Positions 1-45,783 of a DNA stretch of 64,000 bases are shown in pieces (the first letter of the stretch is position 1; every line of letters starts with the position of its first letter). The notes under the pieces are model-generated. The model was given only the letters and a program-made list of their open reading frames with translations. It was not told the origin of the DNA and ran no database searches. The stretch lies in the IMG/VR virus record IMGVR_UViG_3300013117_000027; one strand, given 5' to 3'. Source of the DNA: a virus. The position numbers and the translations under genes are program-made.

Positions 1-684
1 TTATCAGAAGGTCTTACTAGGAAAGAATATAGTAATCAAGCAAGATCTACAATGACAAGTATACTATCTCAAGGTGGTAAGTATACAGATATGTTTAGAG
101 CTGCTCAGTCTAGCGAGAAACCATATCTAGCTGCATGGTTAGATGAAACTAATCCAGAACGTAGAGATGAGATAGCTAGATTCTTACCTGAGAAGATGGG
201 TCATGCAATGAGAACATTTTGGCATTCAACTGATAACAAGATGTCTACAAGAGATTTCTTAGAATCTACTAGTGCTGACTTGGCTAACGGAAGAAAGACC
301 ACGCCTTATAGTATGAATATGTTAGATCCTACTGTAGAACTAGAGGATATAAAACTTAAAACTATACAAAATCAAGGTCTTAATCAACACGATTTTGGTC
401 TTGGATGGCAAGAACAAATGCTTAGGGTACAGAATCAGATAGATGATATGCAGATAGCTGAGATATCAGCCAGACCTTTAGAACCTGTAAATGTTAATAC
501 AGCTGGTATGAAAGCAGCTATATACGAGATGCTTAATCAGATGGGACTTAGTGGACGTGTACAATTATATGTTAATAATCATAGTACTAATAATAACAAA
601 GTAACGTTGACTGTTCAACGAGACAGATTACAAACTTTAAAGCGAAGTTTTAATTCAAGGAATAGGTGGATGAGAAATGTCTAA
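1..684 (+). CDS. C-terminal part of a virion-module protein (runs off the left edge)
   Basis: Frame is open from base 1 to TAA at 684; overlaps the start of the 2440-aa gene; no recognisable motif. Confidence 0.6.
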   Translation, partial: LSEGLTRKEYSNQARSTMTSILSQGGKYTDMFRAAQSSEKPYLAAWLDETNPERRDEIARFLPEKMGHAMRTFWHSTDNKMSTRDFLESTSADLANGRKTTPYSMNMLDPTVELEDIKLKTIQNQGLNQHDFGLGWQEQMLRVQNQIDDMQIAEISARPLEPVNVNTAGMKAAIYEMLNQMGLSGRVQLYVNNHSTNNNKVTLTVQRDRLQTLKRSFNSRNRWMRNV

Positions 685-3600
685 CTATGATAAAGATAAA
701 CCAAAACCTAACTGGTATAATAGAGTAGCTGTAGGATCTATCGGTCTTGCTAGTATTGGTGTAGTAGCTTATAAGATGGGCGGTCCTACAGGAAGACTAT
801 TAGATAATATAAGAGATGAACTTGTAGAGAAAGATGCAGCAGATAAGTATCTTAAGTGGTCAAGGAAAAGTGTTGCTCCTGAAGATGTTAAAGATCTACA
901 GGCTAAAATTGTTACTTCATCAAGAGGCGATACTATGCTAGCAGGCGGACCTCCTACAGATGAAATGATGAACGAAGCTATAGATAAAGAGTTTAAGAGA
1001 CACCAGATAACAGATGATCAACTGTTTAATAAAGCTGCTAGAATGGAAGCTGATATAGAAGCAGCGTTTAATCAGGATATCCATGGTCATGCTACTGATA
1101 AGTTAATGAAGTTAAAAGAGTTTAGACGTTACCATAAAGCTCCAACAGATGCTGAGATGAGAAGAGATATGGTAGTTTCTAAACTAAAACATCAGACCAT
1201 AACTGATTATCATAGAACATCTTATGTTGGCATGGAAGGAGTGCCAGATATAGATCTTACAGATCCTGATATCGTTAGAGATCCTTTTGCTAAGTCTGAA
1301 GAGATAGATAAGTTACATCAACATTATATGAAGAACGATAAGGTGTATGCTAGAAAATATAACAAAGCATTACATGCTTCTTTAAAAGAGATTAAAATTT
1401 CTACTGCAACATCTACTATAGCTAATCCTACTCTACAGAAGAATGGGATATTTGGTACTAATAGTGTACCTAAGTCTATGGGTTCAGTAAAGAATATGTG
1501 GTCTAGTATTCTCGATATAGAGGGCGCAAATGCTTATACGTTAGAACCTGATAAAAGTGTTATGTTACATATAACTGGTCAGGCTGGATTTTCGTCTGAT
1601 GAGATAGTAGCTAAACCTACGTCTTTTGAACTAAAGATGGATAACTCTACAAGGATAAAGTATCAAAAGTATATGCCTCAGTTAAAGAGGATTCAAGGAA
1701 GACTAGAAGAGATTCAGACTCAACTTCACGGTAGGCGCGGTTCTCACGTCATATCTGATATACAAATATCTGATCAAGTTTACTCAGTAGGATCTAATAG
1801 GCAAGTATCTTACGCTGTGGTCGAATGGGATGTTAACGTTGGTACCACGAAGAAGCACGTTACAATACCTATACCTATGGCTGAGAATAACACTGTTCCT
1901 AGTATTAAAGGTATTAATGGAAGACTACGAGCTAACGTTAATTATGTGTCTGCTAATCCATTCGGTCTTGGTTCAAGACAGGTTGTTAATACTACACAAA
2001 TGGCTTTCGAAGAATTACATAATTCACTTACAAGTTCTATGATGAATGAGATGGAAGTAGATACCTCTAAGTTTCAACGTAGAATAGTGGATCGTATTAG
2101 TAACAGAATAGAAAATGGAGTTAAACCTCTTGCTAATGAAACTAGAGATTTCTTTAGTGCTCACCAGGTGAAAGTAATAACTAATGATACTATTATGAAA
2201 AGGAAGGGTGAATCAAGAAAAGGTTTTTTTAAACAGTTAAGAAGTGGCGGTAAGAGTTTAAGAAACATGCAGTTAATAAAGAATAATCCTCATGAATACG
2301 TTACGATGTTCCTCGATATAGAGACTATTAACTTAATGACAAATTCTCCACAGTTACAAAAAGGCGATCCTTTTACAGGAATATGGCAATATGGTATTGT
2401 AGAGCAAGACATGGGTACTGGTAATATAAGAAGAGTTAAACAGATAGCTTCTGATCATGTTCTTAATGAACAGTATATGTTAATAGATAAACATATTAAA
2501 GATGGTACTTTAAAGAATGCATTAAAAGACAATGGTAATACAGGTAAGAACCTTAGATCTATGGCAGAGTATGCACAGAGAACAGTAGGTGGTTCAGATG
2601 ATCTAGACGCTTTACTAAGAATGAGAGAGATGATAAAAGCTCAAGCTAATGTTGATAATAGATACGTTAATTCTTTGTACAAAAATCCTATTAGAACATC
2701 TAATGATTTCGCGAGAGTGATAGACAGTGAGTTAAGAAATGCACAGATGAGAGCTGCTAAAGAGGGTAAGAAACTTATAATAGGTACTGCTAATGGAGAT
2801 TTTGACTTAAGTATCATTGGTAATCTATTAGGAGATTCAGCGTATGCTTCTAAGTTTGATCACCTTGATGTACAGACTATGACAAGAGCTATGACATTAG
2901 GGTTGTACGACCAACCTGCTATGTCTGCTGAGAATCTAATGCCGTGGTATGCATCTAAAACTGGAAGACCAGGTCTTTCTATGTTGTCTTTATCTAAAGA
3001 TCCTGTAGGAACTGTTAAAGCTATAAGTACTGGAGTAACACCTACTGCTCATGTAGGTACCAGGCGTGCTCTAGATATGATGGTAAACGGAGAATTATCT
3101 AAGTATGGTAAGTGGGCTATAGCGGCTGGGCACTCATCTTCTGTATACGATAATGTTAATGCCCTAGGTATAATGCATATGCAAATGGAGTTCTTTGAGA
3201 AAGATGGGTTTCAGACAGCTAGAAATATAGAAGATTTTGTACAGAACGCATCTGGTTATGATGTTAATAAAAACCTTAAATCTCACTTAGAATTAGAGTT
3301 AGGAAGACTTCCTGGACAACAACAATGGTTTTCTTATGGACTAATGTCGTCTAATGCTGCTTCTAAGAAGATAGGAAGTATGGTACATATAGCTCATATG
3401 TGGCCTGGACTATCTCTTAATCCTGGTAACAAAGATTTACACCAGTTCGCTAGACACGACATGGTAAGGAAAGATACTATTAAGAATCCTCATCGTGAGT
3501 ACATGATGAAGAATCCTTTGAGATCTAATGTTGTTACTAAGGTAGAACACTGGATGACAAGAGTGTCAGACTTTGACATGAGGTACTATGCTAATGAGTT

Positions 3601-6600
3601 ACAGTTTAATATGGCTTACGCTGTTAATATGACAGGTAGTAAGAACGGTCTTTTCAAGACAGCGGCTGATACATTAGACTTTACAGTTCATTCTACTACA
3701 AGTGTAAGGGCAGGGGATTTGCCTGCTGACTCTAAACTTGCTAACGAGTTAACAAACATATACTCTAAAATTACAAAGAAAGTTAAAGACTTGTCTAAGA
3801 CTTTACACGGTGATCCTAATCACACTATCAGTGGCGAGATGTGGAAAGAAGCTTGTTCTCTTGTCTTAGCTAAGGAAGGTGTTACATTGCCTACTTTTAC
3901 AAGAGATGCTAATGTTCCAATGAAGGTTTCTATAGGTGGTGAAGATCATGTATTTAACTCTCAACTAAACGGACGAGTAACATCGTTACGCGTTGATGGA
4001 CGTCCCGGTGAGAAAGGAACACCGGGATTTATAGCGGATATAATGTTTGAGGCATCAGGTAACGATCTTAATAATGCTGCAGTTAATCATATGGGAACTA
4101 AGAGTATTGTCACAAGACTTAATGTTAAATCTGCCGAACTAGCATATGGTAAGTTTAATGTACTTCCCGATAACTATGCTATTATGAACTTTGATTTCTT
4201 AGACAAGAAATATTGGGGATCAATGAAAGAGATGATGATTAGGAAAGGTTTGGGTGTGTCTATGTATAACGCTAAACATGCAGCTACAGCAGAGCAACGA
4301 GCTTATGCTGTTAAATCTTACAAGAGAATAGCTAACTTAATAAGAGGTTCTTTTCCTGTTACACAGAATAAAGATGGTAGTGTTCGTTTTGGACCAAGAA
4401 ATCTTTCAGAAGATCCTAAAGAAATAATGAAAAAAATGTCAGCTATACGTATGAACGACATAGTTTACGAACTAGGAGCCGTAGGACATGAAGCGTCTTG
4501 GACTCGTAAGACGATGGAATCTTACTATAATCTTAGAGGTGGCGGTGATATGTGGAGAGGGCGAGATAAGATTAGAAATGAAGTGGCTGATCTTTTATTA
4601 GGTCTAGATAGTGCTGCTAGTAAGATAGAAAAAAGAACTCAACAAGTAATGACTACTGCTGATCAACGTACTCTTATCAAATTATTAGATCCTTTAGGAA
4701 TGATAGAAGATAATCTGAGACAACGAGATGAACTAGTTGGTGGAAGTATAGAATCGCATTATAAGACATTGACTAGAGATAAACAAGAGCAACTTATAAA
4801 AGGAGCACGTATAACTCCTTTCTTACAAGAGTTACCAGATTTACAAGGAGGTGGTAGTTTCTTAGGATTCTATGGCGGGTATCAACCTTCAGCTATTTAT
4901 AATAATAACGCTGGAAGAGATATAAAGTATATGCATGACGTGAAGTGGCAAAAGTCTTACTTTGAACAAACACATGTAAAAGACTCGCTATTCTCTACAA
5001 GAACAAGAAGACTTTTAAGATCCTCGATGGGTTATAGGAGACCTGGTTCAGGCGGTAGTAAACAGTTAGATGTAGCTAAGAAGTTCTTTAGACTGTCAGA
5101 GGCTATACAGAACAAAGGGGTTGCTGACTTAGCATCTGAACATATGTTAACCTTAGATAATATAGATGCTATTATTCACAGAAGAACTACAATGAAAGCT
5201 TTTGAAAGAGACTTAGAATCTCTGGCCGATAATAAGAATACACACGAGATAGCAGCTATTAGTGATTCTCTAGATGATATGCTTAAAGATGTTAACAAGG
5301 CAGAGTCTATTAATAAGGACGCAGTTGCTCATTCAATATTCCAGAAGACTACTGGTGAAAGACGAGAGATATTAGAAACTGTTGCTAAGAGAAATAACTA
5401 TCTACATCAAACAGAGATACAAGAATGGGCTGACCTTGCTGTTAAGAAGAAAGATATATTCTTCCTTCCTAGTAAATTTAAACATAAGGATAAGATATAC
5501 GGTAACGAAAGACTTACTATAACATTAGAGGATGCTGCTGAAGCTTTTAACAAAAAAGTTTTACCTACTGAACCATTAGATTCAAACGCCTTTCTTTCTA
5601 TGTTACGACTAGTCCAAAAAGGTGAGAAGTATAAGACATTGTCTAAAACTAATCAACAACTATTCGATATTGTCGATCTAGGTAATGGGAAACATGAGAT
5701 ACACTTAGGAGGTTTTCTAATGCCAGCACATGGACACGTGGGTAATATTGCCGATATGATGGATTCACAACAATACGGTATAGGTACACAGACTACTAAG
5801 ATGTCTTTTGACATGATGGAAGGATATTATATGTATGCCAAAGATATGATAGAAGGTAGAACTGATAATCTAGGTGCTCATTCAACAAGACTTTTCACTG
5901 ATCAGATGAAGATGTATACACATGCTCTTTCAATGGACAAAATGTCTGCTATGTTTAAGTCTACACAAACTGGAGTTATGCAAGGATTTCAAGCTGTTTA
6001 TAAGTCGGTAGATACACATATAGCTTCAGCTCATCAGGTAATTCAAGATATTGCATCAGACGCTCCTTATATAAAAAAGTGGTTTGCTACTAATAAACAA
6101 TGGACAAAAAAAGATGTCACAGGGGTACTTAACAGATTTACTCAGATGAAACTTAATACTATGACTGCTATGACAAGTACGTTATTCGATGAGAAACAAG
6201 TTGCAGTAAATTTTACTACAGGCAAACAAGAAATGATAGCTGACATGATTCAGAAAGGTACTAAAGAGTTTCAAGAGATGGTAGCAGAAATGAAACTAGG
6301 AAGAAGAACATTACCTGGAGGAGTTGCAGTAAGATTTCCAATGCTGCCTAATGGTGTTAATCCTGGATTCGAAGGTCCTCTGTTTGCTATGCCAGATGAA
6401 ATAGGTACAGGTTTACTAGGCATGAGTAATAATCATATGTACATGGTAGAACCTATCGGAGAACTCGTGAAAGCTGATAATGATGTAGACTTAATGGCGG
6501 TAGTAATGAAGTCTTTTAGTACTATAGAAGATATAGATAGAGCGTCTAGTGAATCTAGGTATAGTCTTAATAAGTTAATGTCGAGACTACAAGGTGGAGG

Positions 6601-7999
6601 ATATCAGAAAGCTTACAACGACGCTAACTATGTATTAAGTACTTATTACGATAAAGGTGAACGTATGGCGCGAGTGTCTAAGTTAGATTCATCTGGTAAA
6701 TTCGTAGTCAATAAAGTGAGGTACGACGCATTAGATTTTGTATCTAACGCTCAAGGTATGGTGCGAGAAACTGGTAAGTTAGGGGGAGCACTAGCTCCTT
6801 TATCTAGTACAGAATTTGTAGCAAGATCTAACCTCCATACATCTACTAAGGCACTAGGTGACCATATAGCAACATCTGCTATGGGAGGATTCTCTAAGAA
6901 TCAGATTGGTCTATGGACTAATACTATACAAAAGAAAGTTCATGAACTATTTATGGCGAACGGTGCTATGGCTACAAAGTCTACTGTCTTAATGGACATG
7001 ATAGGCGATCTTAACCATGGACTAGCTTCTATAGCACAGAGTCCTATTAAAGCTACAAAGCATGGCGATCTAGAATCAGTGATGGATATGACAAAGATGT
7101 TATCATGGATAACAAATCCTACTAAGTCTAGAGTAGAAGATTATAATATGGCTTATAGTACATGGGTAGATCAGTTCCCTGTAGAGAAGCAGGAAGCTAT
7201 GGGAGATATCTTTAGAGTATGGACTAAGAGATCTTCAGTGTTTAGTCTGTTAGATAAATATGATCCAGAAGCAGCTAAGTTTGCTCAACGAGAACAAGGT
7301 ATAATGATGGGTAAACAAGGCACTAACTTTATGGACTACGTATCTTACAAGATGATAGGAGAAAGTAAAGTTCAAGCTAAGTTAGATAATGCGTGGAGAA
7401 TGGCTTACGAGAATGTTATGAATCTTAACGATAAGATGCGTGGCGGTATTAATCCTAAAGATGCACAACAAGCATGGGCTACTAAGTTACAACGTGAACT
7501 AGCAGAGACTTCTTTAGATAAGAGATTTAATGAAGTATTTGGTGATGCTATTACTAAGGCTAAATTTGGAATAAAACGCGGAGGCAAAGGAGCAGCAATC
7601 GCCGGACTAGCATTCCTTGCGCTTAACATGTTTAGACCTAATCAGATGTCTAGTAGTTCTAATCCATTAGATGCCTTTGTAGATCTAGGAATAGATATAC
7701 ATGGTAATAATTCTACTAATGAATTACAGTTAGGAAAAGAAGTACCATTAGATCTTGTTAACGCATCGTTTTCTAAAAAAGCTTTCATAGAAATGCAGAA
7801 TAATAATAGTGCAACTATTAAGAGAGCACAAGGTAATATGGGTATGGACGCTATTAAATCTAGGTACATGACTCCTACAATGGTTCACTCACAGTTTAAT
7901 AGTGGAGGAAGTACTACATATAGTAATCTAACCTCTAACATAGGTATCTTCGGTTCTGGTGAGACGCAAAGAAGAGCACGAAGAATTGGCAGTATATAG
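677..7999 (+). CDS. Giant virion-module protein (2440 aa) with putative two-barrel RNA polymerase motifs and a DEDD-like exonuclease region
   Basis: FLDIET (aa 545-550), NGDFD (706-710) and H819..D825 resemble Exo I/II/III. HMGTKS (~1138), VRFP (~1885), ADNDVD (1933-1938), KNQIGLWTN and QSPIKATKHG resemble double-psi-barrel RNAP motifs. Hydrophobic segments at both ends. The CDS is certain; the function is inferred. Confidence 0.5.
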   Translation: MSNYDKDKPKPNWYNRVAVGSIGLASIGVVAYKMGGPTGRLLDNIRDELVEKDAADKYLKWSRKSVAPEDVKDLQAKIVTSSRGDTMLAGGPPTDEMMNEAIDKEFKRHQITDDQLFNKAARMEADIEAAFNQDIHGHATDKLMKLKEFRRYHKAPTDAEMRRDMVVSKLKHQTITDYHRTSYVGMEGVPDIDLTDPDIVRDPFAKSEEIDKLHQHYMKNDKVYARKYNKALHASLKEIKISTATSTIANPTLQKNGIFGTNSVPKSMGSVKNMWSSILDIEGANAYTLEPDKSVMLHITGQAGFSSDEIVAKPTSFELKMDNSTRIKYQKYMPQLKRIQGRLEEIQTQLHGRRGSHVISDIQISDQVYSVGSNRQVSYAVVEWDVNVGTTKKHVTIPIPMAENNTVPSIKGINGRLRANVNYVSANPFGLGSRQVVNTTQMAFEELHNSLTSSMMNEMEVDTSKFQRRIVDRISNRIENGVKPLANETRDFFSAHQVKVITNDTIMKRKGESRKGFFKQLRSGGKSLRNMQLIKNNPHEYVTMFLDIETINLMTNSPQLQKGDPFTGIWQYGIVEQDMGTGNIRRVKQIASDHVLNEQYMLIDKHIKDGTLKNALKDNGNTGKNLRSMAEYAQRTVGGSDDLDALLRMREMIKAQANVDNRYVNSLYKNPIRTSNDFARVIDSELRNAQMRAAKEGKKLIIGTANGDFDLSIIGNLLGDSAYASKFDHLDVQTMTRAMTLGLYDQPAMSAENLMPWYASKTGRPGLSMLSLSKDPVGTVKAISTGVTPTAHVGTRRALDMMVNGELSKYGKWAIAAGHSSSVYDNVNALGIMHMQMEFFEKDGFQTARNIEDFVQNASGYDVNKNLKSHLELELGRLPGQQQWFSYGLMSSNAASKKIGSMVHIAHMWPGLSLNPGNKDLHQFARHDMVRKDTIKNPHREYMMKNPLRSNVVTKVEHWMTRVSDFDMRYYANELQFNMAYAVNMTGSKNGLFKTAADTLDFTVHSTTSVRAGDLPADSKLANELTNIYSKITKKVKDLSKTLHGDPNHTISGEMWKEACSLVLAKEGVTLPTFTRDANVPMKVSIGGEDHVFNSQLNGRVTSLRVDGRPGEKGTPGFIADIMFEASGNDLNNAAVNHMGTKSIVTRLNVKSAELAYGKFNVLPDNYAIMNFDFLDKKYWGSMKEMMIRKGLGVSMYNAKHAATAEQRAYAVKSYKRIANLIRGSFPVTQNKDGSVRFGPRNLSEDPKEIMKKMSAIRMNDIVYELGAVGHEASWTRKTMESYYNLRGGGDMWRGRDKIRNEVADLLLGLDSAASKIEKRTQQVMTTADQRTLIKLLDPLGMIEDNLRQRDELVGGSIESHYKTLTRDKQEQLIKGARITPFLQELPDLQGGGSFLGFYGGYQPSAIYNNNAGRDIKYMHDVKWQKSYFEQTHVKDSLFSTRTRRLLRSSMGYRRPGSGGSKQLDVAKKFFRLSEAIQNKGVADLASEHMLTLDNIDAIIHRRTTMKAFERDLESLADNKNTHEIAAISDSLDDMLKDVNKAESINKDAVAHSIFQKTTGERREILETVAKRNNYLHQTEIQEWADLAVKKKDIFFLPSKFKHKDKIYGNERLTITLEDAAEAFNKKVLPTEPLDSNAFLSMLRLVQKGEKYKTLSKTNQQLFDIVDLGNGKHEIHLGGFLMPAHGHVGNIADMMDSQQYGIGTQTTKMSFDMMEGYYMYAKDMIEGRTDNLGAHSTRLFTDQMKMYTHALSMDKMSAMFKSTQTGVMQGFQAVYKSVDTHIASAHQVIQDIASDAPYIKKWFATNKQWTKKDVTGVLNRFTQMKLNTMTAMTSTLFDEKQVAVNFTTGKQEMIADMIQKGTKEFQEMVAEMKLGRRTLPGGVAVRFPMLPNGVNPGFEGPLFAMPDEIGTGLLGMSNNHMYMVEPIGELVKADNDVDLMAVVMKSFSTIEDIDRASSESRYSLNKLMSRLQGGGYQKAYNDANYVLSTYYDKGERMARVSKLDSSGKFVVNKVRYDALDFVSNAQGMVRETGKLGGALAPLSSTEFVARSNLHTSTKALGDHIATSAMGGFSKNQIGLWTNTIQKKVHELFMANGAMATKSTVLMDMIGDLNHGLASIAQSPIKATKHGDLESVMDMTKMLSWITNPTKSRVEDYNMAYSTWVDQFPVEKQEAMGDIFRVWTKRSSVFSLLDKYDPEAAKFAQREQGIMMGKQGTNFMDYVSYKMIGESKVQAKLDNAWRMAYENVMNLNDKMRGGINPKDAQQAWATKLQRELAETSLDKRFNEVFGDAITKAKFGIKRGGKGAAIAGLAFLALNMFRPNQMSSSSNPLDAFVDLGIDIHGNNSTNELQLGKEVPLDLVNASFSKKAFIEMQNNNSATIKRAQGNMGMDAIKSRYMTPTMVHSQFNSGGSTTYSNLTSNIGIFGSGETQRRARRIGSI

Positions 8000-8025: not shown

Positions 8026-8202
8026 ATGTTTATAGAAGCTAACATTACAATAGATGTACCCGACGGCGTAGATATTACGCCTATTATACAACAAATAAAA
8101 GCAATACTAAGTCGTACTAACGACATGGATACAGATGTTCACATTATAGAAGTTGATGACCCTATAAGTACTAATCCTGTAAATTTATCAAAGGTTATAT
8201 AG
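8026..8202 (+). CDS. Small hypothetical protein (58 aa, absent from the ORF track)
   Basis: AAGGAG Shine-Dalgarno before ATG 8026; MFIEANITIDVPDGVDITPIIQQ...LSKVI; its stop abuts the next ATG at 8203. Confidence 0.7.
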   Translation: MFIEANITIDVPDGVDITPIIQQIKAILSRTNDMDTDVHIIEVDDPISTNPVNLSKVI

Positions 8203-8879: not shown

Positions 8880-11800
8880 ATGGCAGTAGAAAGATATCAT
8901 TTTAATAGTTCAGCAACATCAGACCTATCAGAAGTGTCTTATAACCAATTATCAAAGTATCTTAAGTTAAAGTTACACGAAGTAGAAAAGACTTCTGAGA
9001 AAGAAAGTAATCATACTGTGGTAATGGAAGACCTTAGTCAAGATCCAAATCCTGTATGGTTATCACAGTATAATGTAGAAATTCTAAAAGAGATAAGAAA
9101 GACTTTATTCGAAGATCTTGAGATAACAAAACCGCCTAGTCTTAATAGTGGTAGAGAAACTTTATCGATGCTCGATGCTCCTCTTCCTGGTGATGTACTT
9201 ATTATAAATAAATCAAATCCTGATACTAGTAAACAATACACTATTATTACATCGATTGATAGTGGTGGACGCGTGTATACGTTTCCAGCTACATCAGAAG
9301 TAGATCTACGATATGTTACTCATGTTTATAGATTCGATATTCTCTCAGATGATAATGCAGCAGAGATTATATCTAAGATGAATCAAACAATTGAAGACGC
9401 AGCTATCCTTCCGAAACCGAGAATGTCTGTCGATATAAATGTTCCTGTGTACACAGAAGAACCTCGTGGATTATTACAGATAGGTGATATTAAATTCTTA
9501 ATAGCTCCTACTCAAATGAGTTTTACTACACAGAACGGTTATCAACACTTTCCTACTGTTAGAACTAAAGGTAATCCTAAACTTCCTACGTTAGCAGAGA
9601 CTAAGTCTTTAAATTTTACGTTAATATTCCCTAATACAGAAGCTATTAATAATCAGTTGGTTCCTTTATATGCTATGTTTAAAAGGACTCCGTTCGTGAA
9701 TCTTTATAACAGAGATATATCTGAATTTTACAGTACTATAAGAAATAGAGATACTAAGTATATACCTGTAGCTCTTGAATCTATCACAGTAGAATCTGTT
9801 ACTGGATTTCCTAATACTCTACAAGCTAATATAACTGTCTTACCTTTCCAACACAAAGGTGTAGGAGAAACATTTGAAGCGTTAAAGACATTTGGAGATG
9901 TAAAATCTCAACAATACTTAAAGCGAGATATATCAGAAGGTAGGGTAGTAGAACAAATTGAAGCAAGATTAGAGAACAGAGAAGCTACACCACACTCTAA
10001 CAATATGCTTACAAATGTTATACACTCGTCTGATAACTTCGAGAAAAGTGAACCTTTCAGAGCTTTTTATCAATCGTTAATAGCAGAAAGAAAGTATGTA
10101 GAAAATGACCTAGGTGAGATAGTATATAAAACAGATGGTAGTTCTATCCCTCTTTCTACGTTCAGACCTAAACATATAGAGAATCAGTTACATTACTATT
10201 CGGCTCAGGCTAATAAGAAGAATATGACTTTCACATATGAGTTTATACCTCAGAATCTTAGAGAGTTTTCAGATGATCTTCGTGCATTAAGAAAACAAGA
10301 GATAACTACTCTAGGTAGTGAGACAGCGGAGATGTTAAAGATTATTACTAGTAGAGATTCTAAGTTTAAAAACTTCATGAGAGAAGCGCTTATTAATAGA
10401 CAAACATTCTACGATCAGATAGGAAATCATTTTAAAAAAGCTGAGAGGTATATACATGATTTCTTAGGTTTTCATAGAATTAATATTGATTCAAGTCCTG
10501 GTCCAGAGATTACTAATCTCCTAGAGTTACTACTAGAAGTGGGTGCTCATCAGTTTCCAGTAACCGCATGGGTAACAGGAACAGGAAGAGGAGTAGTATC
10601 TACCACTGCCGATCTTATAAAGAATGTATCAGATGGTAACTATTCACTTGGTAATACAAGTGGAGAAGAATTACTAAATATTTTAAATGGTGTTATGACA
10701 TGGTATGAAGGGCCTGACGAAACACGACGGTTAGGTGCTGTGGATGCTAATACTTTATCGGATATTATATCTGACCAGATATTAGATTATCTTGATGCAG
10801 TATCTGACTCTAAAGAAAACGGTGAGTCTGAAAAAGAAAAGTGGGCACAGTTCTTTGATCGTTTCTTTAAAGCGTTTGTAGATCCATCTATTATAAGAAA
10901 TTTATCTGCAGGTCAAGAGATCGTAGCTTTTAAGACAGAGAGAGATATTATAGAGATAGACAATGTTAACGATGTGGTTAATGGTTGGGGACTACAGTTT
11001 TCTAATAAGCTTGTTCCTATACATCTTAACGGTTTTCAATTTCCTTATTATCAACACGTTGGATGCGATGATGTCAATATCTTTCTTAATATAAAGTCTA
11101 TACAAGGAGGCCGAGATCAAGGTCTTAAAGAGAGACTGTCTTTATTAAATGAAAGATTACATACTACAACAAAGATTGTTACATACAATGCGCCTGAGTT
11201 AATAACTCACTTAGATCCAAGATTAAGTGTTAGTGTACAAGGTAATGATCTTGGACATATATTTAATGTATTCGGTATAAGAAAAGTTGTTTATAATGGT
11301 AGTAATGTATCAAGTGTGGAAGGTAAACCTGATTGTTGGTCTATTAATCTTAATCTTACCCAGGCTAACTTTACTTTAAAAGATTATCAGTCTATCGTAG
11401 TAAAGAAGTCTATATCCGGAATAGAAGATGAGGTCGCTAACTTACTACTTAGATCTAGAATAACTCCAGATGGAGGTATAGAGGTAATAGATTACAAGGT
11501 TAATACTGACAGATTAAAAGATTTAGATTCTGTATCACCTGAAGCTACAAAAGGATTTGTGGGTAAGTACTTTGGAGATTGGGCAAAGTCTATGATACCT
11601 AATAGTACTAAGGATCTAGTTATTCCAAAAGAGTATGTTATAGGTTCTCCAGATAATACTAATATATTCGGAGATGCCTCATTAAGTGGTGAGCAGACAA
11701 GACGTATTAATAATATGATCATGTCTATGACTTTCTATAAACGTTTTATCCAAGAAGCTTATGAACAATGGCGTGGTACACAAAAGGATTCTGAACAAGA

Positions 11801-14800
11801 AGCAGGATTTGAAGTAGATGATAACTTCGATGGTGCTCATAAGAATAGTCCTGATAAAGAGGATAGGAACTCAAGGATAGGTAAAGCTTTACAATATATG
11901 ACCTTATTATTTAATCCTGGATCTAACAATGATAAATGGATAATACAAGAGGTTAAGAATGAATCTGACACGGTTAGACTTAATAAGTCATTAGGTGATC
12001 TAAAGATAAAGACTATATACAAAGGTATTGTAAATGATATGGACAATCTACATTATCAACACGCTGGTGTTTTAATGCAAGGTGCCGAAAGAGCAAGAGG
12101 TTACTGGGAAATACTATGGTATGATCTTAGAAATAATAGTTCAGGTTTTATAGCAGGAACAATATTCGGTGCATTACTATGTTATCTAGCAGGAGCAGGA
12201 ACGTTTGTATGGACTGTATTCACCGGTATAGCAAGCTTACTAGGATTCGGTATACCTGGAGTCAAGACAGGTAAAGAAGCTGCTGTAGCAGCCACGTTTG
12301 ACATTTTATCAGAGTCATTACCTTCATTAATGAACGGTATTAAATCTTCTGTTGTACAAGATATGGTAAATAATATTATTAGAGATCCTGTTGCTAGAAG
12401 AAAGTTCTTTGATAATAAATATGAAGATATTGTCGGTGAGATATATTCTAGCGATGGTATGAACTGTTACGAAGACTTTGATATACCTACAAATTTTCTT
12501 GCTGGTTACACAGATGCTAATAATGATCCATTAGGTATAAAGTTTTCACCAGACTTCTATCTTTTCGATAAAGACTTTACTGGTATAGAAAAGTATTCTT
12601 ATGTTAATCAGTTCATAGACACTACATCTAGGATGGCCAAGCTCGCTTTACAGTTAACTCTTGAAGAAAATAAAGAAGTTATAGAAAAGTTAAAGCAAGT
12701 AGAAGAATTAATATTCGATGCATCAGAACTAGATAGTGTTGTTAAGCGTCAACTTTACGATGAAGTATCAATGACAACAGATGGTGGAACTAATACACAA
12801 ACTAATCAGACTATTGAAAGCGACATAAATAATAAGTTAGAAGAACTCAAGGACGTATATGTTCATCTTGCTCTTGATCAAAGAAATAATAAAGTTAATC
12901 CTGATGCACAGAAATTAAACCTAATGAGATCTGCTAGGAATAAGAGAGTATTAGAGTTAAAAGTTATTCAAACAGCTATCAATCTCGCTCTTGCTGGATC
13001 AAAATTAGACACAGATCATGGTAAAGATAAGTATTCAGGAACTAATCAACCAGCTTATTTATCAGACGACAAATCGTTGATAAGTGATACAAGGCTAAGA
13101 AGTTCCTTAGAAGGCGCGTCGTATCAACAACTAAGGAAGATGGCAGATCTTATAAGAAAATACTTTAGACATTATACTAACGAAGAACAAATGAAACACG
13201 AAGAAGTTATCAATAAAGATACACCAAGTATACGTTTTTTCGAAGAGACTGTATACACTCTTGTTACACAGTTAATAATCTTAGGAGATGCTATAGCTGA
13301 GTTCGAATCTGGTAATCTTACTGTTACGTCATTATTAACCGACATACCTGAGATGGGATTACTAGATTGGTATAACTGGAGAAATATAGATGATATCAAT
13401 GATAAGAAAATATCTTTAATGAGTGACTTCTTAGAAGAAGACACTAATAGAACTCGTGGGTATAACCAAAAAATGTTTCCTACATTTAAGGTATTCTTTG
13501 TAGAAGAAGATGGTAAGACTATAAGCGTAGATGACTACTACGCTTATAACGCTGTACAGTCTATAGACATTATTAAGAATAAGTATTCAGCATCTTCTAC
13601 CGCTGTTATAAAATTAGGTAACGTATACGGTAATCTTACTAATAAGATATCTTTAATGAAAGAATCTGATCAGATTCTAGACATACTTCTTAACCAAAGA
13701 GATAATAGAATATTCTTAGGAAGTCTAGATATTAAGCCAGGTGTTAAGATAATAGTAAAAATGGGATACGGAGCTAATGATAGAGATCTTAAGATAGTTT
13801 TTATCGGTAAGGTAGTAGAGATGAGTGCTGGTCCTATCACTGAGTTAGTAGCTCAATCTTACGGTGCACAATTATCACATGAGATTACTAAGATGCACTT
13901 TGGAGTTCTTAACTCTAGAAAAGAACATGGAGATATAGCATCAGCTGTTTTAGACGCTATACCATCATTAGATGGTCTAGGTAAACCATCACTCTTAGGA
14001 TTAAATCCAGTTAATTATAGTGGAAGACGTAGCGCTTTCTATGATGGAACATTGTTTGATAGATTCTTAATGTCTAATATAACTACAAGAGTTAATACCA
14101 CGTTGTTTCAAGAAGATAATCCTAGAGATGAGAACATATACCTTCCGGTGGATCTGATACCTGATATTACAAAGAACGTTACATTCGACTGGATAGTTTA
14201 TAATCAAACAGTATGGCAAGCTTTACATGAGTTAAGTCTTTATCACGATAATACTATTCCTATTATAAGACCTTATAATGATGGTATGTTCTCTACGTTG
14301 GATGACGCAAGAGAAACTATTGTAGTAGGTAAGAAGAGTGGGTGGTATAAACACACAGATGCATTCAGATATACTACAAGAGATATCGATAAACTAGGTA
14401 ACCTTATAGATGATTGGAACACTAAGTACTGGAAGTTCTTAATGGAATTAAGACAGAAGATACAGAAAACTAGAACTTTACTAATAGATGCACCATCTGG
14501 CCAAGCAGCTCCAAAAGATGTAATTCTTGCCGAGTACCTTGTTCAAGAAGGATTAATGAAGAAGGAAGTTCAAGAAGTAAGGAAGACTGGTATTGATGTT
14601 ACTGTTACTATTACTAATTACTATCCAAGAGGCAAGTTAAAGAATTTACTTGTAGGTCTGTCTAGTAAACAGTTAGCTCTCGTAGTTACTAAAGCTATAG
14701 AAGATAATGCTCCTCAGGTAGACACTAGAAATCTTGGTACTATGCAATTACTCGTAGACACTGTAGCTAGAGTTGTTCCAGGTATATGGGAAACTACAGC

Positions 14801-16283
14801 TAACAAACTAAGAACTTCTATATTAAAAGTAGGATTCAATGAAGCTATAAGTGATAGAAAAGCTGACGAAGTTATCGTCATGGAAAGTAGAGTATTTCAA
14901 AGAGCTAATTCTAGTCCAGGCACACCAACTGTTACTATAAGACATTCTATATTTGATGTTATACTTAACTTTGGTAGTGTGCCTCGACGATATGAGAATT
15001 TTGTACAAAGACTTAATGATCTTAAGCCTTATCAATTCTTAGGTGTGTCTGCTAAGGAGTTAGATAATAATCAAGATAAATTTGTTAACGATCCAAGATA
15101 TAGAAAGATTCAACGTCAACATTTAATAACAGATACTAGTGATATTATATCTAACGAGATAGTCTTATCTGAAGATTTTAACAACGCCGTGAAGGTATAC
15201 TATTTATCAGAACCTAAGTTTTATACAGACTTAGGAAGTATAAGTGCTGATGATCAAGAGAAGTTATCATGGGACACTGTTAAAGCTTTTGGAGATACAA
15301 GAGATACAGACGTACGACTTCTAGAAACTTATCAGAAGAACATAGATACAAACTGGTATGAGATACGAAAGTACAATGAGGAAGTTCTTGGTAAATATAG
15401 TACTATGTATAAGAAGAATAGAGAGTCAGATAATCAAAATAATAAGAACTATAAGATTACAATGAACGAATTACCATCTTACAAGAAAGTTGGTATTAAT
15501 CTTCTTATACGAGAAGTTGAAAAGATGTATAGAGGTAATATAACTATTATAGGAAATCCAGCTATAGAACCGATGGACATTGTTCATATAGAAGATTCTA
15601 TGAATAACATGGATGGACCTATAGAGATAGAAGAAGTTATACATTCATTCTCTCCCACAACCGGGTACACGACTACACTTACTCCTTCGTTAATAACATA
15701 CGATAGAGATCCTATAGCTATGAGTGATCTTAGTGTTATACATAGAATACTTACAACTGCTGAAAGTAAGAGAAGTTCTACAAGGATGTGGGCATTCGCA
15801 CAAGCAACTGCGGCTGGTATAGCTTCGACGTTCGCTATTGCTGACATAGTAGGTGGAACAAAAATAGGTGGTATTATGACACTTATAGGTACTGTTCCTG
15901 CTATGGCATCTTCGTTGTGGAATATGGTTGTAGGTGTAGAGAAAAGATATAACAAGTTCATATACGATCATATGGCAAATGTGTTCGGACGTGATTGTAT
16001 AAACTTCTCAGCTTTACACTACAAAGATAAACCTTATATGACAGGTTTTGGTGGTGTAGACTACACTAATATAAAGACATTAATAAATCACCAATGGCAA
16101 GGTCTTGGGGTTATAGAAAGATTAGCAACATCTAATGATGTAGAAGGTAAGTGGATTGAAAACTCAACATTCTCTAAAGATTTACCAGTATTTAAATATC
16201 TTCTTCAGGAAGATGTACCAGTTGTTGGTAAACCGTTATACTATATAATGAAATTCTTTGGAAACGATTCATGGGGACAATAG
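8880..16283 (+). CDS. Giant baseplate hub-like (gp27/GPD-fold-containing) virion protein, 2467 aa
   Basis: Hub-like segments IKPGVKIIVKMGYG...VFIGKVVEM...VAQSYG and MYRGNITIIGNPAIEPMDIVHIED...EVIHSFS..GYTTTLTP; lies upstream of gp25-like and baseplate-J genes; internal hydrophobic helices. Confidence 0.6.
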   Translation: MAVERYHFNSSATSDLSEVSYNQLSKYLKLKLHEVEKTSEKESNHTVVMEDLSQDPNPVWLSQYNVEILKEIRKTLFEDLEITKPPSLNSGRETLSMLDAPLPGDVLIINKSNPDTSKQYTIITSIDSGGRVYTFPATSEVDLRYVTHVYRFDILSDDNAAEIISKMNQTIEDAAILPKPRMSVDINVPVYTEEPRGLLQIGDIKFLIAPTQMSFTTQNGYQHFPTVRTKGNPKLPTLAETKSLNFTLIFPNTEAINNQLVPLYAMFKRTPFVNLYNRDISEFYSTIRNRDTKYIPVALESITVESVTGFPNTLQANITVLPFQHKGVGETFEALKTFGDVKSQQYLKRDISEGRVVEQIEARLENREATPHSNNMLTNVIHSSDNFEKSEPFRAFYQSLIAERKYVENDLGEIVYKTDGSSIPLSTFRPKHIENQLHYYSAQANKKNMTFTYEFIPQNLREFSDDLRALRKQEITTLGSETAEMLKIITSRDSKFKNFMREALINRQTFYDQIGNHFKKAERYIHDFLGFHRINIDSSPGPEITNLLELLLEVGAHQFPVTAWVTGTGRGVVSTTADLIKNVSDGNYSLGNTSGEELLNILNGVMTWYEGPDETRRLGAVDANTLSDIISDQILDYLDAVSDSKENGESEKEKWAQFFDRFFKAFVDPSIIRNLSAGQEIVAFKTERDIIEIDNVNDVVNGWGLQFSNKLVPIHLNGFQFPYYQHVGCDDVNIFLNIKSIQGGRDQGLKERLSLLNERLHTTTKIVTYNAPELITHLDPRLSVSVQGNDLGHIFNVFGIRKVVYNGSNVSSVEGKPDCWSINLNLTQANFTLKDYQSIVVKKSISGIEDEVANLLLRSRITPDGGIEVIDYKVNTDRLKDLDSVSPEATKGFVGKYFGDWAKSMIPNSTKDLVIPKEYVIGSPDNTNIFGDASLSGEQTRRINNMIMSMTFYKRFIQEAYEQWRGTQKDSEQEAGFEVDDNFDGAHKNSPDKEDRNSRIGKALQYMTLLFNPGSNNDKWIIQEVKNESDTVRLNKSLGDLKIKTIYKGIVNDMDNLHYQHAGVLMQGAERARGYWEILWYDLRNNSSGFIAGTIFGALLCYLAGAGTFVWTVFTGIASLLGFGIPGVKTGKEAAVAATFDILSESLPSLMNGIKSSVVQDMVNNIIRDPVARRKFFDNKYEDIVGEIYSSDGMNCYEDFDIPTNFLAGYTDANNDPLGIKFSPDFYLFDKDFTGIEKYSYVNQFIDTTSRMAKLALQLTLEENKEVIEKLKQVEELIFDASELDSVVKRQLYDEVSMTTDGGTNTQTNQTIESDINNKLEELKDVYVHLALDQRNNKVNPDAQKLNLMRSARNKRVLELKVIQTAINLALAGSKLDTDHGKDKYSGTNQPAYLSDDKSLISDTRLRSSLEGASYQQLRKMADLIRKYFRHYTNEEQMKHEEVINKDTPSIRFFEETVYTLVTQLIILGDAIAEFESGNLTVTSLLTDIPEMGLLDWYNWRNIDDINDKKISLMSDFLEEDTNRTRGYNQKMFPTFKVFFVEEDGKTISVDDYYAYNAVQSIDIIKNKYSASSTAVIKLGNVYGNLTNKISLMKESDQILDILLNQRDNRIFLGSLDIKPGVKIIVKMGYGANDRDLKIVFIGKVVEMSAGPITELVAQSYGAQLSHEITKMHFGVLNSRKEHGDIASAVLDAIPSLDGLGKPSLLGLNPVNYSGRRSAFYDGTLFDRFLMSNITTRVNTTLFQEDNPRDENIYLPVDLIPDITKNVTFDWIVYNQTVWQALHELSLYHDNTIPIIRPYNDGMFSTLDDARETIVVGKKSGWYKHTDAFRYTTRDIDKLGNLIDDWNTKYWKFLMELRQKIQKTRTLLIDAPSGQAAPKDVILAEYLVQEGLMKKEVQEVRKTGIDVTVTITNYYPRGKLKNLLVGLSSKQLALVVTKAIEDNAPQVDTRNLGTMQLLVDTVARVVPGIWETTANKLRTSILKVGFNEAISDRKADEVIVMESRVFQRANSSPGTPTVTIRHSIFDVILNFGSVPRRYENFVQRLNDLKPYQFLGVSAKELDNNQDKFVNDPRYRKIQRQHLITDTSDIISNEIVLSEDFNNAVKVYYLSEPKFYTDLGSISADDQEKLSWDTVKAFGDTRDTDVRLLETYQKNIDTNWYEIRKYNEEVLGKYSTMYKKNRESDNQNNKNYKITMNELPSYKKVGINLLIREVEKMYRGNITIIGNPAIEPMDIVHIEDSMNNMDGPIEIEEVIHSFSPTTGYTTTLTPSLITYDRDPIAMSDLSVIHRILTTAESKRSSTRMWAFAQATAAGIASTFAIADIVGGTKIGGIMTLIGTVPAMASSLWNMVVGVEKRYNKFIYDHMANVFGRDCINFSALHYKDKPYMTGFGGVDYTNIKTLINHQWQGLGVIERLATSNDVEGKWIENSTFSKDLPVFKYLLQEDVPVVGKPLYYIMKFFGNDSWGQ

Positions 16284-17110: not shown

Positions 17111-17619
17111 TGGATTTATTCGGAGGACGAGTAGATGTACATATGTCTTATGATGGAGATCTAGAGTTTGAACAAGGCGATATCAAGTTGGTACGTGGTA
17201 TAGATTATATAAAGCATCTTATATACAAGGTTCTTACAACAGAAAAAGGTGATTGGAAAATATATCCTCAAGAAGGTGGAAGTCCTGTAGTATTCTTAGG
17301 TGAACAAAACACTAGGGATACAGCTAAGTTACTAGAAGGACATTTAGTATCGTCATTATCAGAATACGTTTTACCAGCTACAGTAGAAGCCAGAGTAGTT
17401 CCTATATCTCATGACTCAGTAAAGTGTTACGTTGATATTATTATATTAGGTCTTACTATTGCACAAGTTCCATTTATGCTTGATTATATTAACGGTATAA
17501 AGTATGAAGACTTTGACGAGACAGTAGATACGGTAGTCGCATCTAAAGAGCACAGACCGAACGATAATCGTTCGCTCACAAATCCTAATCCGTATCTAGA
17601 TAGAATAAGGAGACAATAA
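17110..17619 (+). CDS. gp25/GPW-like baseplate wedge (sheath initiator) protein
   Basis: GDLEFEQGDIKLVRGIDYIKHLIYKVLTTEKGDWKIYPQEG pattern; directly upstream of baseplate J. Confidence 0.7.
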   Translation: MDLFGGRVDVHMSYDGDLEFEQGDIKLVRGIDYIKHLIYKVLTTEKGDWKIYPQEGGSPVVFLGEQNTRDTAKLLEGHLVSSLSEYVLPATVEARVVPISHDSVKCYVDIIILGLTIAQVPFMLDYINGIKYEDFDETVDTVVASKEHRPNDNRSLTNPNPYLDRIRRQ

Positions 17620-45756: not shown

Positions 45757-45783
45757 ATTTTCCTTTCTATATAGTACTTTATA

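What the first reader, a model, noticed from the sequence alone, without database searches (positions are those of the whole stretch)
4050..7070. Cryptic single-chain two-barrel RNA polymerase inside a 2440-aa virion-module protein
Seen, in the order expected for a fused beta/beta' core: NHMGTKSIV (aa ~1137-1145, like beta RHGNKGVV); VRFP (R1886); ADNDVD (D1934/D1936/D1938) 48 residues later; then KNQIGLWTN and AQSPIKATKHG. Known: two-barrel polymerases use R-x-P followed by DxDxD (NADFDGD in beta', DFDID in the crAss-like phi14:2 virion RNAP). The IG..N and D/Q...K.G motifs follow it in YonO/QDE-1-type enzymes, and Thermus phage P23-45 has a tape-measure-fused virion RNAP. Inference: this gene sits in the tape-measure position, just upstream of the hub and baseplate genes, and has hydrophobic ends, so it may be an ejected, highly divergent RNAP with a non-canonical DNDVD site. 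The first beta-barrel Lys is not obvious, so it could be inactive.
Basis: partly seen in the sequence, partly recalled or inferred. Interest (0 to 1): 0.85.

Follow-up and report, generated by a model that had tools for sequence, protein, structure and literature searches.

The report
Tail-module giant protein hiding RNA polymerase
A 2440-residue gene among the tail genes of an uncultured contractile-tailed phage contains a very diverged, one-chain version of the cell-type (beta plus beta') RNA polymerase core behind an exonuclease-like segment, so the phage probably injects its own transcription enzyme, a strategy shown by experiment in only a few unrelated phages.

Summary
ORF 677-7999 (+) encodes 2440 aa, and every quoted motif is at the stated position. 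No sequence method recognises the protein (Pfam, PHROGs, NCBIfam, PDB sequences, 50,697 phage genomes). It has 16 full-length metagenomic relatives (16-38% identity). Only 24 columns are invariant, and they include R1886, P1888, D1934, D1936, D1938, Q2121 and K2128. K1177 and K1184 are nearly invariant.

A model of aa 846-1500 matches only second-largest RNA polymerase subunits (Foldseek E 1.9e-4; VIA Z up to 9.2, about 230 aligned) and isolated double-psi beta-barrels. In a weaker model, aa 1478-2237 aligns colinearly with whole beta'/Rpb1 chains (Z 5.3-7.0). A two-chain fold places K1142-1149 and 1175-1180 at the same interface as ADNDVD (score 0.71, best control 0.00).

- The enzyme looks like a fused beta-beta' type, and likeness to YonO/QDE-1 was not shown.
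- It is the second of three giant tail-module genes.
- Conserved barrel lysines are present.

Packaging into the virion and catalytic activity are inferred, not shown. This scan has reported similar tail-module polymerases on other DNA. I found no paper describing this family.

The parts
677..7999 (+). Gene for the 2440-aa giant protein (P0001), the second of three giant tail-module ORFs. Its start overlaps the end of the upstream giant ORF by 8 nt.
   Evidence: family of 17 full-length members of 2348-2491 aa; conserved synteny
725..781 (+). N-terminal hydrophobic, Gly-rich segment (aa 17-35); G36 and P37 just after it are nearly invariant
2294..3166 (+). DEDDh (DnaQ-like) 3'-5' exonuclease-like segment, aa ~540-830: ExoI D547-x-E549, ExoII N706-G-x-x-F-D710, ExoIII H819-x5-D825, all invariant
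   Evidence: motifs and invariance only; fold not tested; Pfam, NCBIfam and hhalign vs E. coli DnaQ gave nothing:
3566..4930 (+). beta/Rpb2-like module (aa ~964-1418) containing a double-psi beta-barrel with a large internal insertion
   Evidence: model m00a6e7277b75; Foldseek: all top 50 hits are RNAP second-largest subunits, best E 1.9e-4; VIA Z 9.2/222 aligned to ASFV RPB2, 8.7/239 to vaccinia Rpo132, 7.6 to AR9, 7.4 to phiKZ, plus isolated DPBB domains at Z ~7; BFVD poxvirus Rpo132 E 3.4e-5
4085..4111 (+). NHMGTKSIV motif; K1142 is conserved as K/R in 15 of 17 members and lies in the predicted interface with the DxDxD module
4199..4228 (+). LDKKYWGSMK motif (aa 1175-1184): K1177 (16 K, 1 R), G1181 (invariant), K1184 (15 K, 1 R); residues 1175-1180 lie in the predicted interface
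5108..7387 (+). beta'/Rpb1-like module (aa ~1478-2237), colinear with whole largest subunits from their N-terminus to their C-terminus
   Evidence: model mbe238a23d8ac (low to moderate confidence); VIA wide and second look: all 50 rows are RNAP largest subunits, Z 5.3-7.0, 130-370 aligned; Foldseek top ranks are beta'/A190 but E >= 0.12
6329..6340 (+). VRFP: invariant R1886 and P1888, preceded by a conserved LPGG
6473..6490 (+). ADNDVD: invariant D1934, D1936, D1938, the presumed Mg-binding triad
   Evidence: the best (non-significant) hhalign placement against E. coli beta' is on NADFDGD; residues 1933-1939 lie in the predicted interface with the beta-like module
6842..6955 (+). 38-residue helix (aa 2056-2093) carrying S-K-x-x-I-G-L-x-T-N-T; bridge-helix-like (inference)
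   Evidence: helix H967-1004 of model 1; conservation
7004..7066 (+). G2110 ... Q2121-x-x-I-x-x-x-K2128-H2129-G segment; trigger-loop-like (inference)
   Evidence: invariant G2110, Q2121, K2128 and near-invariant H2129
7514..7996 (+). C-terminal tail (aa ~2280-2440), the best-conserved part of the protein, with a hydrophobic Gly/Ala stretch at aa 2303-2318; role unknown (virion anchoring or membrane insertion are guesses)
   Evidence: conservation profile; invariant F2319 and R2432
8026..8202 (+). 58-aa ORF in the position of the conserved 53-66-aa ORF that separates giants B and C in all relatives
8880..16283 (+). Third giant ORF (2467 aa), followed by baseplate genes; places the locus in the tail/baseplate module
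   Evidence: phrog_20474 match at aa 2073-2288; phrog_975, phrog_6 baseplate genes at 17110-18884
1..684 (+). C-terminal end of the first giant ORF; its counterparts in relatives carry a Cas4/PD-(D/E)xK nuclease domain
   Evidence: phrog_1706 E 1e-17 in L003 and L012 counterparts; weak intein Pfam hits

Best explanation
P0001 is a multi-domain giant protein of the tail module. Its C-terminal 1500 residues are a single-chain, extremely diverged two-barrel RNA polymerase of the fused beta-beta' type. The beta-like module (aa ~964-1418) supplies a double-psi barrel with conserved lysines K1142, K1177 and K1184. The beta'-like module (aa ~1478-2237) supplies R1886-x-P and the D1934-x-D-x-D metal triad, followed by bridge-helix-like and trigger-loop-like segments. 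A DEDDh exonuclease-like segment (aa ~540-830) and hydrophobic N- and C-terminal segments flank the core. The most likely mechanism is as follows. The protein is made late with the tail proteins and packed in or at the tail. On contraction it is ejected together with the other two giant proteins. It then transcribes the first phage genes independently of host RNA polymerase. Shown here: the family's conservation pattern, the beta-like fold with a barrel, the colinear beta' likeness, and a predicted interface containing both the Lys motifs and the Asp triad. Inferred: catalytic activity, RNA as the product, packaging and ejection, and the role of the exonuclease. My estimates are about 0.9 that a two-barrel polymerase core is present, about 0.75 that it is an active DNA-dependent RNA polymerase, and about 0.65 that it is virion-delivered.
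For: Conservation: 24 invariant columns among 17 members at 16-38% identity include R1886, P1888, D1934, D1936, D1938, G2110, Q2121 and K2128; K1177, H2129, I2077, T2081 and N2082 are near-invariant; K1142, K1177 and K1184 counts are. beta module: the AF2 model of aa 846-1500 has pLDDT 70-88 over aa 975-1405. In Foldseek PDB all 50 top hits are beta/Rpb2/Rpo132 chains, best E 1.9e-4, prob 1.00. VIA wide gives ASFV 8q3b_B Z 9.2 (rmsd 4.2, 222 aligned), vaccinia 6rfl_B Z 8.7 (239), Pol IV 8.3, Pol I 8.2, AR9 7s00_C 7.6, phiKZ 7ogp_C 7.4, and isolated DPBB domains 7dbo_B 7.1 and 7dww_A 7.0. In the second look, 65 chains reach Z >= 8 and all 50 rows shown are second-largest subunits. BFVD gives poxvirus Rpo132 at E 3.4e-5. 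beta' module: VIA rows are colinear from chain residue ~20 to the chain's C-end for Pol II, Pol I, Pol III, bacterial beta', ASFV and vaccinia, Z 5.3-7.0. Two-chain fold (aa 965-1420 with aa 1760-2140): score 0.71, best of 3 controls 0.00 (the mark was reached by 58 of 80 solved complexes and 2 of 110 mismatched pairs); runs agree in at least 57% of contacts; partner pLDDT at least 65. The interface includes 1142-1149, 1175-1180 and 1933-1939. This pass may reflect likeness to solved RNA polymerases. Context: the gene is co-oriented and overlapping within the tail/baseplate block, and the three-giant-gene synteny is conserved in 11 related contigs.
Against: No sequence method links the protein to any RNA polymerase. 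hhalign against E. coli beta' only places its best, non-significant hit (E 0.47) on NADFDGD, and it finds nothing against beta or phi14:2 gp66. The stretch around RxP and DxDxD has pLDDT below 50 in the only model that covers it, so the catalytic barrel is not seen directly. The beta' matches have Z below 8, a range the tool warns can be a common arrangement. The protein has one cysteine, so the Zn-binding elements of beta' are absent. There are no data on virion content, transcripts or activity. The models rest on 13-sequence alignments.
Confidence: 0.68

Rival explanations
1. The protein is a real two-barrel RNA polymerase but is not packaged. It would be a non-virion enzyme for middle or late transcription that merely happens to be encoded among the tail genes.
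For: Packaging was not tested. Jumbo phages of the phiKZ/AR9 type have non-virion enzymes, which are among the structural matches (7s00_C, 7ogp_C).
Against: The gene overlaps the preceding giant tail-module ORF and keeps the same place between the chaperone-sized ORFs/giant A and the baseplate genes in all 11 related contigs. It has hydrophobic ends and a highly conserved C-terminal tail unrelated to polymerase function. An enzyme made with late structural genes is of little use for late transcription unless it is carried into the next cell.
Confidence: 0.12
2. The protein is a two-barrel nucleotidyl transferase with a different job. It could be a DNA polymerase or primase (in analogy to archaeal PolD, with the DEDDh domain as proofreader) or an RNA-dependent RNA polymerase.
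For: An exonuclease-like segment with invariant DEDDh residues is fused upstream. A polymerase plus a 3'-5' exonuclease is the normal arrangement for replicative DNA polymerases. Substrate choice cannot be read from these models.
Against: Both modules match RNA polymerase subunits over their whole length, including the clamp-like N-terminal part of beta' and the parts of beta around the barrel. PolD chains did not appear in the rows shown, which does not exclude them.
Confidence: 0.1
3. The protein is a structural tail, tape-measure or ejection protein in which a polymerase-derived fold survives as an inactive scaffold.
For: The gene lies in the tape-measure region. The protein is large and has hydrophobic ends.
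Against: The residues that stay invariant at 16% identity are exactly the catalytic ones (RxP, three Asp, barrel Lys, Q/K/H of the loop after the long helix) and the DEDDh set. A scaffold would not keep these.
Confidence: 0.06
4. The motifs are chance and the fold matches are artefacts of weak models, so there is no polymerase.
For: DxDxD arises by chance in 47% of shuffles. Model pLDDT is only 63-64 overall. No sequence-level link exists.
Against: Two independent models of non-overlapping cores each hit only the matching RNA polymerase subunit (beta for aa 964-1418, beta' for aa 1478-2237), in the right order. Isolated DPBB domains are also hit. The catalytic residues are invariant.
Confidence: 0.04

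Closest known systems
Thermus phage P23-45 gp96 (virion two-barrel RNA polymerase fused to the tape measure protein; PMC10770324)
   Same: Both are two-barrel polymerases that form part of a giant tail-module protein and are presumed or shown to be ejected to transcribe the first genes. Both are recognisable by sequence only through DxDxD.
   Different: gp96 belongs to a siphovirus and carries the polymerase at the N-terminus of the true tape measure. The paper's dendrogram places it in the clade of single-subunit phage/plasmid enzymes together with QDE-1. Here the phage has baseplate-wedge (contractile-tail type) genes, the polymerase is C-terminal and preceded by an exonuclease-like segment, the gene is the second of three giants, and the fold matches are to beta and beta' of multisubunit enzymes. 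No direct comparison with gp96 was possible.
Virion and non-virion multisubunit RNA polymerases of jumbo phages (phiKZ, AR9; PMC7598289, PMC7824862; PDB 7ogp, 7s00)
   Same: They have beta- and beta'-like modules without alpha and omega subunits. Their beta-barrel subunits are among the structural matches (Z 7.4-7.6; AR9 beta' N-half Z 5.5). Their virion form is injected for early transcription.
   Different: Those enzymes are split into four or five separate polypeptides encoded outside the tail module. This one is a single chain with fused extra domains, and tblastn against 50,697 phage genomes finds no relative.
crAss-like phage phi14:2 gp66 (2180-aa virion RNA polymerase; 10.1101/2020.03.07.982082)
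   Same: Both are giant virion-type proteins with a hidden two-barrel core and a DxDxD-type loop.
   Different: gp66 is QDE-1-like and belongs to a podovirus. hhalign of this family against gp66 found nothing, and gp66 was not among the fold-search rows shown.
Cellular and nucleocytoplasmic-virus RNA polymerase beta/Rpb2 and beta'/Rpb1 (e.g. ASFV 8q3b, vaccinia 6rfl, Pol II 8uhd)
   Same: These are the best structural matches for both modules, in the same order along the chain as rpoB-rpoC.
   Different: Sequence identity in the structural alignments is only about 4-14%. Both modules are much shorter. The protein has a single cysteine, so no Zn sites. The two modules are fused in one chain with an exonuclease-like segment and hydrophobic ends.

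Membership tests
Two-barrel (double-psi beta-barrel) nucleic-acid polymerase superfamily | A beta-type double-psi barrel (DPBB-B) carrying conserved basic residues | tested here: met
   The model of aa 846-1500 matches RNAP second-largest subunits (Z up to 9.2, about 230 aligned) and isolated DPBB domains (Z ~7). K1142, K1177 and K1184 are conserved. This is a prediction, not an experimental structure.
Two-barrel (double-psi beta-barrel) nucleic-acid polymerase superfamily | A beta'-type barrel (DPBB-A) with an invariant DxDxD metal-binding loop | tested here: inconclusive
   DxDxD and the upstream RxP are invariant, and the region lies in a beta'-colinear module. The barrel itself has pLDDT below 50 in the model.
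Two-barrel (double-psi beta-barrel) nucleic-acid polymerase superfamily | The two barrels face each other, with the Asp triad next to the basic residues | tested here: met
   In the two-chain fold (score 0.71, best control 0.00; mark reached by 58 of 80 solved and 2 of 110 mismatched pairs; contacts agree at least 57%; partner pLDDT at least 65), the interface holds 1142-1149, 1175-1180 and 1933-1939. This is a prediction only and may reflect likeness to solved polymerases.
Two-barrel (double-psi beta-barrel) nucleic-acid polymerase superfamily | Template-dependent nucleotide polymerisation | not testable with these tools
   This needs an in vitro primer-extension assay.
Multisubunit-type (beta/beta') RNA polymerases, including fused derivatives | The beta' homologue is colinear from the N-terminal clamp through the active site, bridge helix and trigger loop to the C-terminal module | tested here: inconclusive
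   All 50 rows run from chain residue ~20 to the chain's C-end, but Z is 5.3-7.0 on a model with pTM 0.41. A long helix at aa 2056-2093 and a conserved Q..KHG loop fit a bridge helix and trigger loop by inference.
Multisubunit-type (beta/beta') RNA polymerases, including fused derivatives | A domain inserted inside the beta barrel (the flap/SBHM insert that the YonO/RdRP type lacks; PMC7824862) | tested here: inconclusive
   DPBB matches span model residues 128 to ~566 with only 75-80 aligned residues, so the barrel holds a large insertion that includes beta strands. The fold of the insert was not identified.
Multisubunit-type (beta/beta') RNA polymerases, including fused derivatives | Zn-binding cysteine clusters of beta' | tested here: not met
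   The whole 2440-aa protein has one cysteine.
Multisubunit-type (beta/beta') RNA polymerases, including fused derivatives | Detectable sequence homology (Pfam RNA_pol_Rpb1/Rpb2 families) | tested here: not met
   No RNAP family matched any of the 17 members at E up to 10. hhalign against E. coli beta and beta' was non-significant.
Single-subunit YonO / QDE-1 / phi14:2 gp66 / P23-45 gp96 type | Sequence or fold likeness to these enzymes | tested here: inconclusive
   hhalign against gp66 found nothing. None of these chains was among the rows shown, which does not exclude them.
Tail tape measure protein | The gene directly follows the tail assembly chaperone pair and precedes the hub/baseplate genes | tested here: not met
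   In all related contigs the ~100-aa and ~200-aa ORFs are followed by giant A, and P0001 comes second. It does precede giant C and the baseplate genes.
DEDDh (DnaQ-like) 3'-5' exonucleases | ExoI DxE, ExoII NxxxD/FD and ExoIII Hx(4-5)D in order and conserved | tested here: met
   D547, E549, N706, D710, H819 and D825 are invariant in 17 members.
DEDDh (DnaQ-like) 3'-5' exonucleases | RNase H-like fold, or a profile match to an exonuclease family | tested here: inconclusive
   There was no Pfam or NCBIfam match except one member to PF13482 at E 0.037. hhalign against E. coli DnaQ found nothing. This segment was not folded.

The most novel reading that the evidence does not exclude
The three consecutive giant proteins are a Cas4-like nuclease giant, this exonuclease-polymerase giant and the hub-proximal giant. 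They would form an ejected enzyme assembly anchored in the envelope by their hydrophobic segments. Within it, a self-contained fused beta-beta' polymerase with its own built-in 3'-5' exonuclease would start transcription at the tail exit and help pull the genome in. The exonuclease could act on transcripts, replacing Gre/TFIIS-type factors, or on host nucleic acids. This would be a lineage of cell-type RNA polymerase that is single-chain and cysteine-free, and it has no counterpart among the cultured phages searched.
Probability: 0.2. Interest if true: 0.88.

Novelty: new variant of a known kind. Interest (0 to 1): 0.72.

Why it matters
Virion-delivered RNA polymerases let a phage start its programme without the host enzyme. 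They have been shown by experiment in only a few groups: N4-like, phiKZ/AR9-like, crAss-like and P23-45-like phages. This family would add a fifth solution, a complete beta-beta' core fused in one chain within a giant tail-module protein of contractile-tailed phages and joined to an exonuclease-like domain. It is invisible to every sequence library tried. If confirmed, three things follow. Hidden polymerases may be common among the giant 'structural' genes of uncultured phages. The family offers a minimal, cysteine-poor single-chain model of the cell-type enzyme. It also bears on whether fused or split forms of two-barrel polymerases are ancestral.

Tried and rejected
**Sequence libraries with no informative match**
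- Pfam, PHROGs and NCBIfam gave nothing for P0001 or for any of the 17 family members.
- PDB sequence search with profiles A1 and A3 gave nothing relevant.
- tblastn of P0001, its C-terminal part, P0022 and P0014 against 50,697 phage genomes gave no real match.

**Profile comparisons (hhalign)**
- Family profiles against phi14:2 gp66, E. coli beta and E. coli DnaQ gave nothing.
- Against E. coli beta', the only result was a non-significant placement on NADFDGD.

**Searches for more family members**
- IMG/VR found no relative.
- The metagenome contig scan returned one locus that was already known.
- A word-indexed protein search with the 17-sequence profile returned only the query.

**Other look-ups**
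- The ESM Atlas look-alike search gave no usable lead.
- Sequencing-run look-up: no run was listed and no RNA holder was listed.
- No paralogy was found between P0001 and the two neighbouring giants, and they share no terminal motif.
- An HMM search of all frames found no second copy of either polymerase module in the window.

**Fold-search absences**
- phi14:2 gp66, QDE-1, P23-45 gp96/gp64 and PolD were not among the rows shown. This does not exclude them.

**Lead and literature**
I could not follow it because I had no accession and found no paper.
- Literature searches found no description of this family.
Full report
**What is there.** The window is a co-oriented block of a large, AT-rich (about 35% GC) phage genome.
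- ORF 677-7999 (+) encodes 2440 aa (P0001).
- Its start overlaps the end of a giant ORF that runs in from the window's left edge.
- It is followed by a 58-aa ORF (8026-8202), an HNH/endonuclease VII gene (8203-8871) and a 2467-aa ORF (8880-16283).
- Baseplate genes come next: phrog_975 at 17110-17619 and baseplate wedge phrog_6 at 17619-18884.

**Is it more than chance?** The motifs alone are weak. A DxDxD occurs in 47% of shuffles of this protein, and RxP followed 30-60 residues later by DxDxD in 2.9%.

No library recognises the protein. Pfam, PHROGs, NCBIfam, PDB sequences and tblastn against 50,697 phage genomes all gave nothing.

An exhaustive HMMER search of 1.84 billion representatives found a family: 17 full-length members of 2348-2491 aa, plus fragments. 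Aligned at 16-38% identity to the query, they share only 24 invariant columns:
- R1886, P1888, D1934, D1936, D1938, G2110, Q2121 and K2128;
- D547, E549, N706, D710, H819 and D825, which form a DEDDh exonuclease motif set;
- G1181.

K1177, H2129, I2077, T2081 and N2082 are conserved at 90% or more. K1142 is K or R in 15 of 17 members and K1184 in 16 of 17.

**Fold evidence.** I fetched 11 related contigs to cut sub-alignments by DNA reference.

*Model 1* covers aa 1090-2250 from 13 sequences. It is weak (pLDDT 62.6, pTM 0.41), and the RxP and DxDxD stretches are below 50.
- Foldseek found nothing significant, but its top ranks were almost all RNA polymerase largest subunits.
- VIA-align, both without Foldseek and as a second look, gave only largest subunits among the long matches.
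- These matches always run from model residue 389 (aa 1478) at chain residue ~20 to model residues ~1140-1161 at the chain's C-end, with Z 5.3-7.0 and up to about 370 residues aligned.
- This is suggestive rather than decisive. Z is in the range the tool calls common, but the matches are colinear, span whole chains and come from bacteria, eukaryotes and viruses.

*Model 2* covers aa 846-1500 and has pLDDT 70-88 over aa 975-1405. It gave clear and independent results.
- All 50 top Foldseek PDB hits are second-largest subunits. The best are E. coli beta at E 1.9e-4 and vaccinia Rpo132 at 8.3e-4, both with probability 1.00.
- VIA wide puts ASFV RPB2 (Z 9.2, rmsd 4.2, 222 aligned), vaccinia (8.7), Pol IV (8.3) and Pol I (8.2) on top. 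Phage AR9 (7.6) and phiKZ (7.4) beta subunits follow.
- Isolated double-psi barrels also match at Z ~7: the VAT/Cdc48 N-domain and designed DPBB proteins.
- In the second look, 65 chains reach Z >= 8.
- BFVD gives poxvirus Rpo132 at E 3.4e-5.
- The barrel matches span model residues 128 to ~566 with only 75-80 aligned residues, so the barrel carries a large insertion.

**Do the two halves form one site?** I folded aa 965-1420 against aa 1760-2140 as two chains.
- The score was 0.71 and the best of three controls was 0.00.
- The mark was reached by 58 of 80 solved complexes and 2 of 110 mismatched pairs.
- Runs agree in at least 57% of contacts, and partner pLDDT is at least 65.
- The confident interface contains 1142-1149 and 1175-1180 (the conserved Lys motifs) on one side, and 1913-1929 and 1933-1939 (ADNDVD) on the other.
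- Two-barrel polymerases place the basic residues of one barrel against the Asp triad of the other (PMC7824862; PMC10770324), and this interface is compatible with that arrangement.
- The pass may stem from the predictor's memory of solved polymerases. It shows likeness, not binding.

**Reading.** The order along the chain is:
1. a hydrophobic N-terminus;
2. an unknown domain with invariant H214, Y224 and Y332;
3. a DEDDh-like segment;
4. a beta-like module;
5. a beta'-like module with RxP, DxDxD, a 38-residue helix carrying SK..IGL.TNT, and a G...Q..I...KHG loop;
6. a highly conserved hydrophobic C-terminal tail.

The bridge-helix and trigger-loop labels are inferences from position and conservation.

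The type looks like a fused beta-beta' enzyme rather than the YonO/QDE-1 type. This was not settled: gp66, QDE-1 and gp96 simply did not show up, and hhalign against gp66 found nothing. The protein has a single cysteine, so the beta' zinc sites are absent.

**Context and mechanism.** In every related contig the order is the same:
- a ~100-aa ORF and a ~200-aa ORF;
- giant A (2043-2560 aa);
- giant B (this protein);
- a 53-66-aa ORF;
- giant C (2413-2592 aa);
- ~275-aa and ~170-aa ORFs, then baseplate J.

Giant A carries a Cas4/PD-(D/E)xK nuclease domain (phrog_1706, E 1e-17). In some contigs it also has weak intein hits.

The polymerase is thus embedded in a conserved tail-internal module of three giant, partly enzymatic proteins. 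By analogy with P23-45 gp96, N4, crAss-like and phiKZ-like phages, I infer that it is packaged, ejected on contraction, and transcribes the first genes. Packaging, ejection and activity are not shown.

The exonuclease could trim transcripts, degrade host nucleic acids, or proofread if the enzyme made DNA. I cannot decide between these roles.

**Novelty.** I found no paper describing this family, and no cultured phage in the collection has a detectable relative. This scan has already reported similar tail-module two-barrel polymerases on other DNA, including one fused to an exonuclease. Those notes are unchecked by me and do not count as support. I class the finding as a new variant of a known kind, namely virion-type two-barrel RNA polymerases fused into tail-module giants.

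Noticed in passing
window 2294-3166 (aa 540-830 of P0001): A complete DEDDh exonuclease motif set (D547-x-E549, N706-G-x-x-F-D710, H819-x5-D825) is invariant in all 17 family members, with unusually long spacers. No profile or hhalign support was found, and the segment was not folded.
   Followed up: partly
window 1-684; L003:3705-10001; L012:3886-10017; L002:1966-9648; L005:205-7602: The giant ORF upstream of P0001 carries a Cas4/PD-(D/E)xK nuclease domain in relatives (phrog_1706, E 1e-17). In two contigs it has weak intein/LAGLIDADG Pfam hits. Its length varies from 2043 to 2560 aa or more, probably because of inteins.
   Followed up: partly
window 8203-8871: A 222-aa HNH/endonuclease VII-like gene sits between the conserved 58-aa ORF and giant C. 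None of the 11 related contigs has a gene there, so it looks like a recent homing-endonuclease insertion. A similar gene lies at 31779-32438.
   Followed up: partly
window 7514-7996 (aa 2280-2440): The C-terminal 160 residues, which include a hydrophobic Gly/Ala stretch, are the most conserved part of the whole protein. They are more conserved than the catalytic regions, and their function is unknown.
   Followed up: no
window 1316-1672 (aa 214-332): H214, Y224 and Y332 are invariant in the N-terminal ~530 residues, which match nothing. This may be a further unrecognised functional domain.
   Followed up: no
window 15096-15743 (aa 2073-2288 of the 8880-16283 ORF): The C-terminal part of giant C matches phrog_20474 (labelled endolysin, a 1954-position profile) at E 1.4e-41. 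It may be a cell-wall-degrading or hub-associated domain.
   Followed up: no
window 59377-61452: A 691-aa ORF matches a nucleotide-sugar epimerase profile at aa 1-124 and a LAGLIDADG homing endonuclease at aa 237-416. The next ORF but one (62539-63363) matches the same epimerase family. This may be an intein or an endonuclease insertion in a sugar-pathway gene.
   Followed up: no
window 44725-45801 (-): This is the only sizeable minus-strand gene in the window. It matches Cas4-like exonuclease PHROGs (phrog_1706, E 2.3e-9), so the phage has a second PD-(D/E)xK nuclease besides the one in giant A.
   Followed up: no
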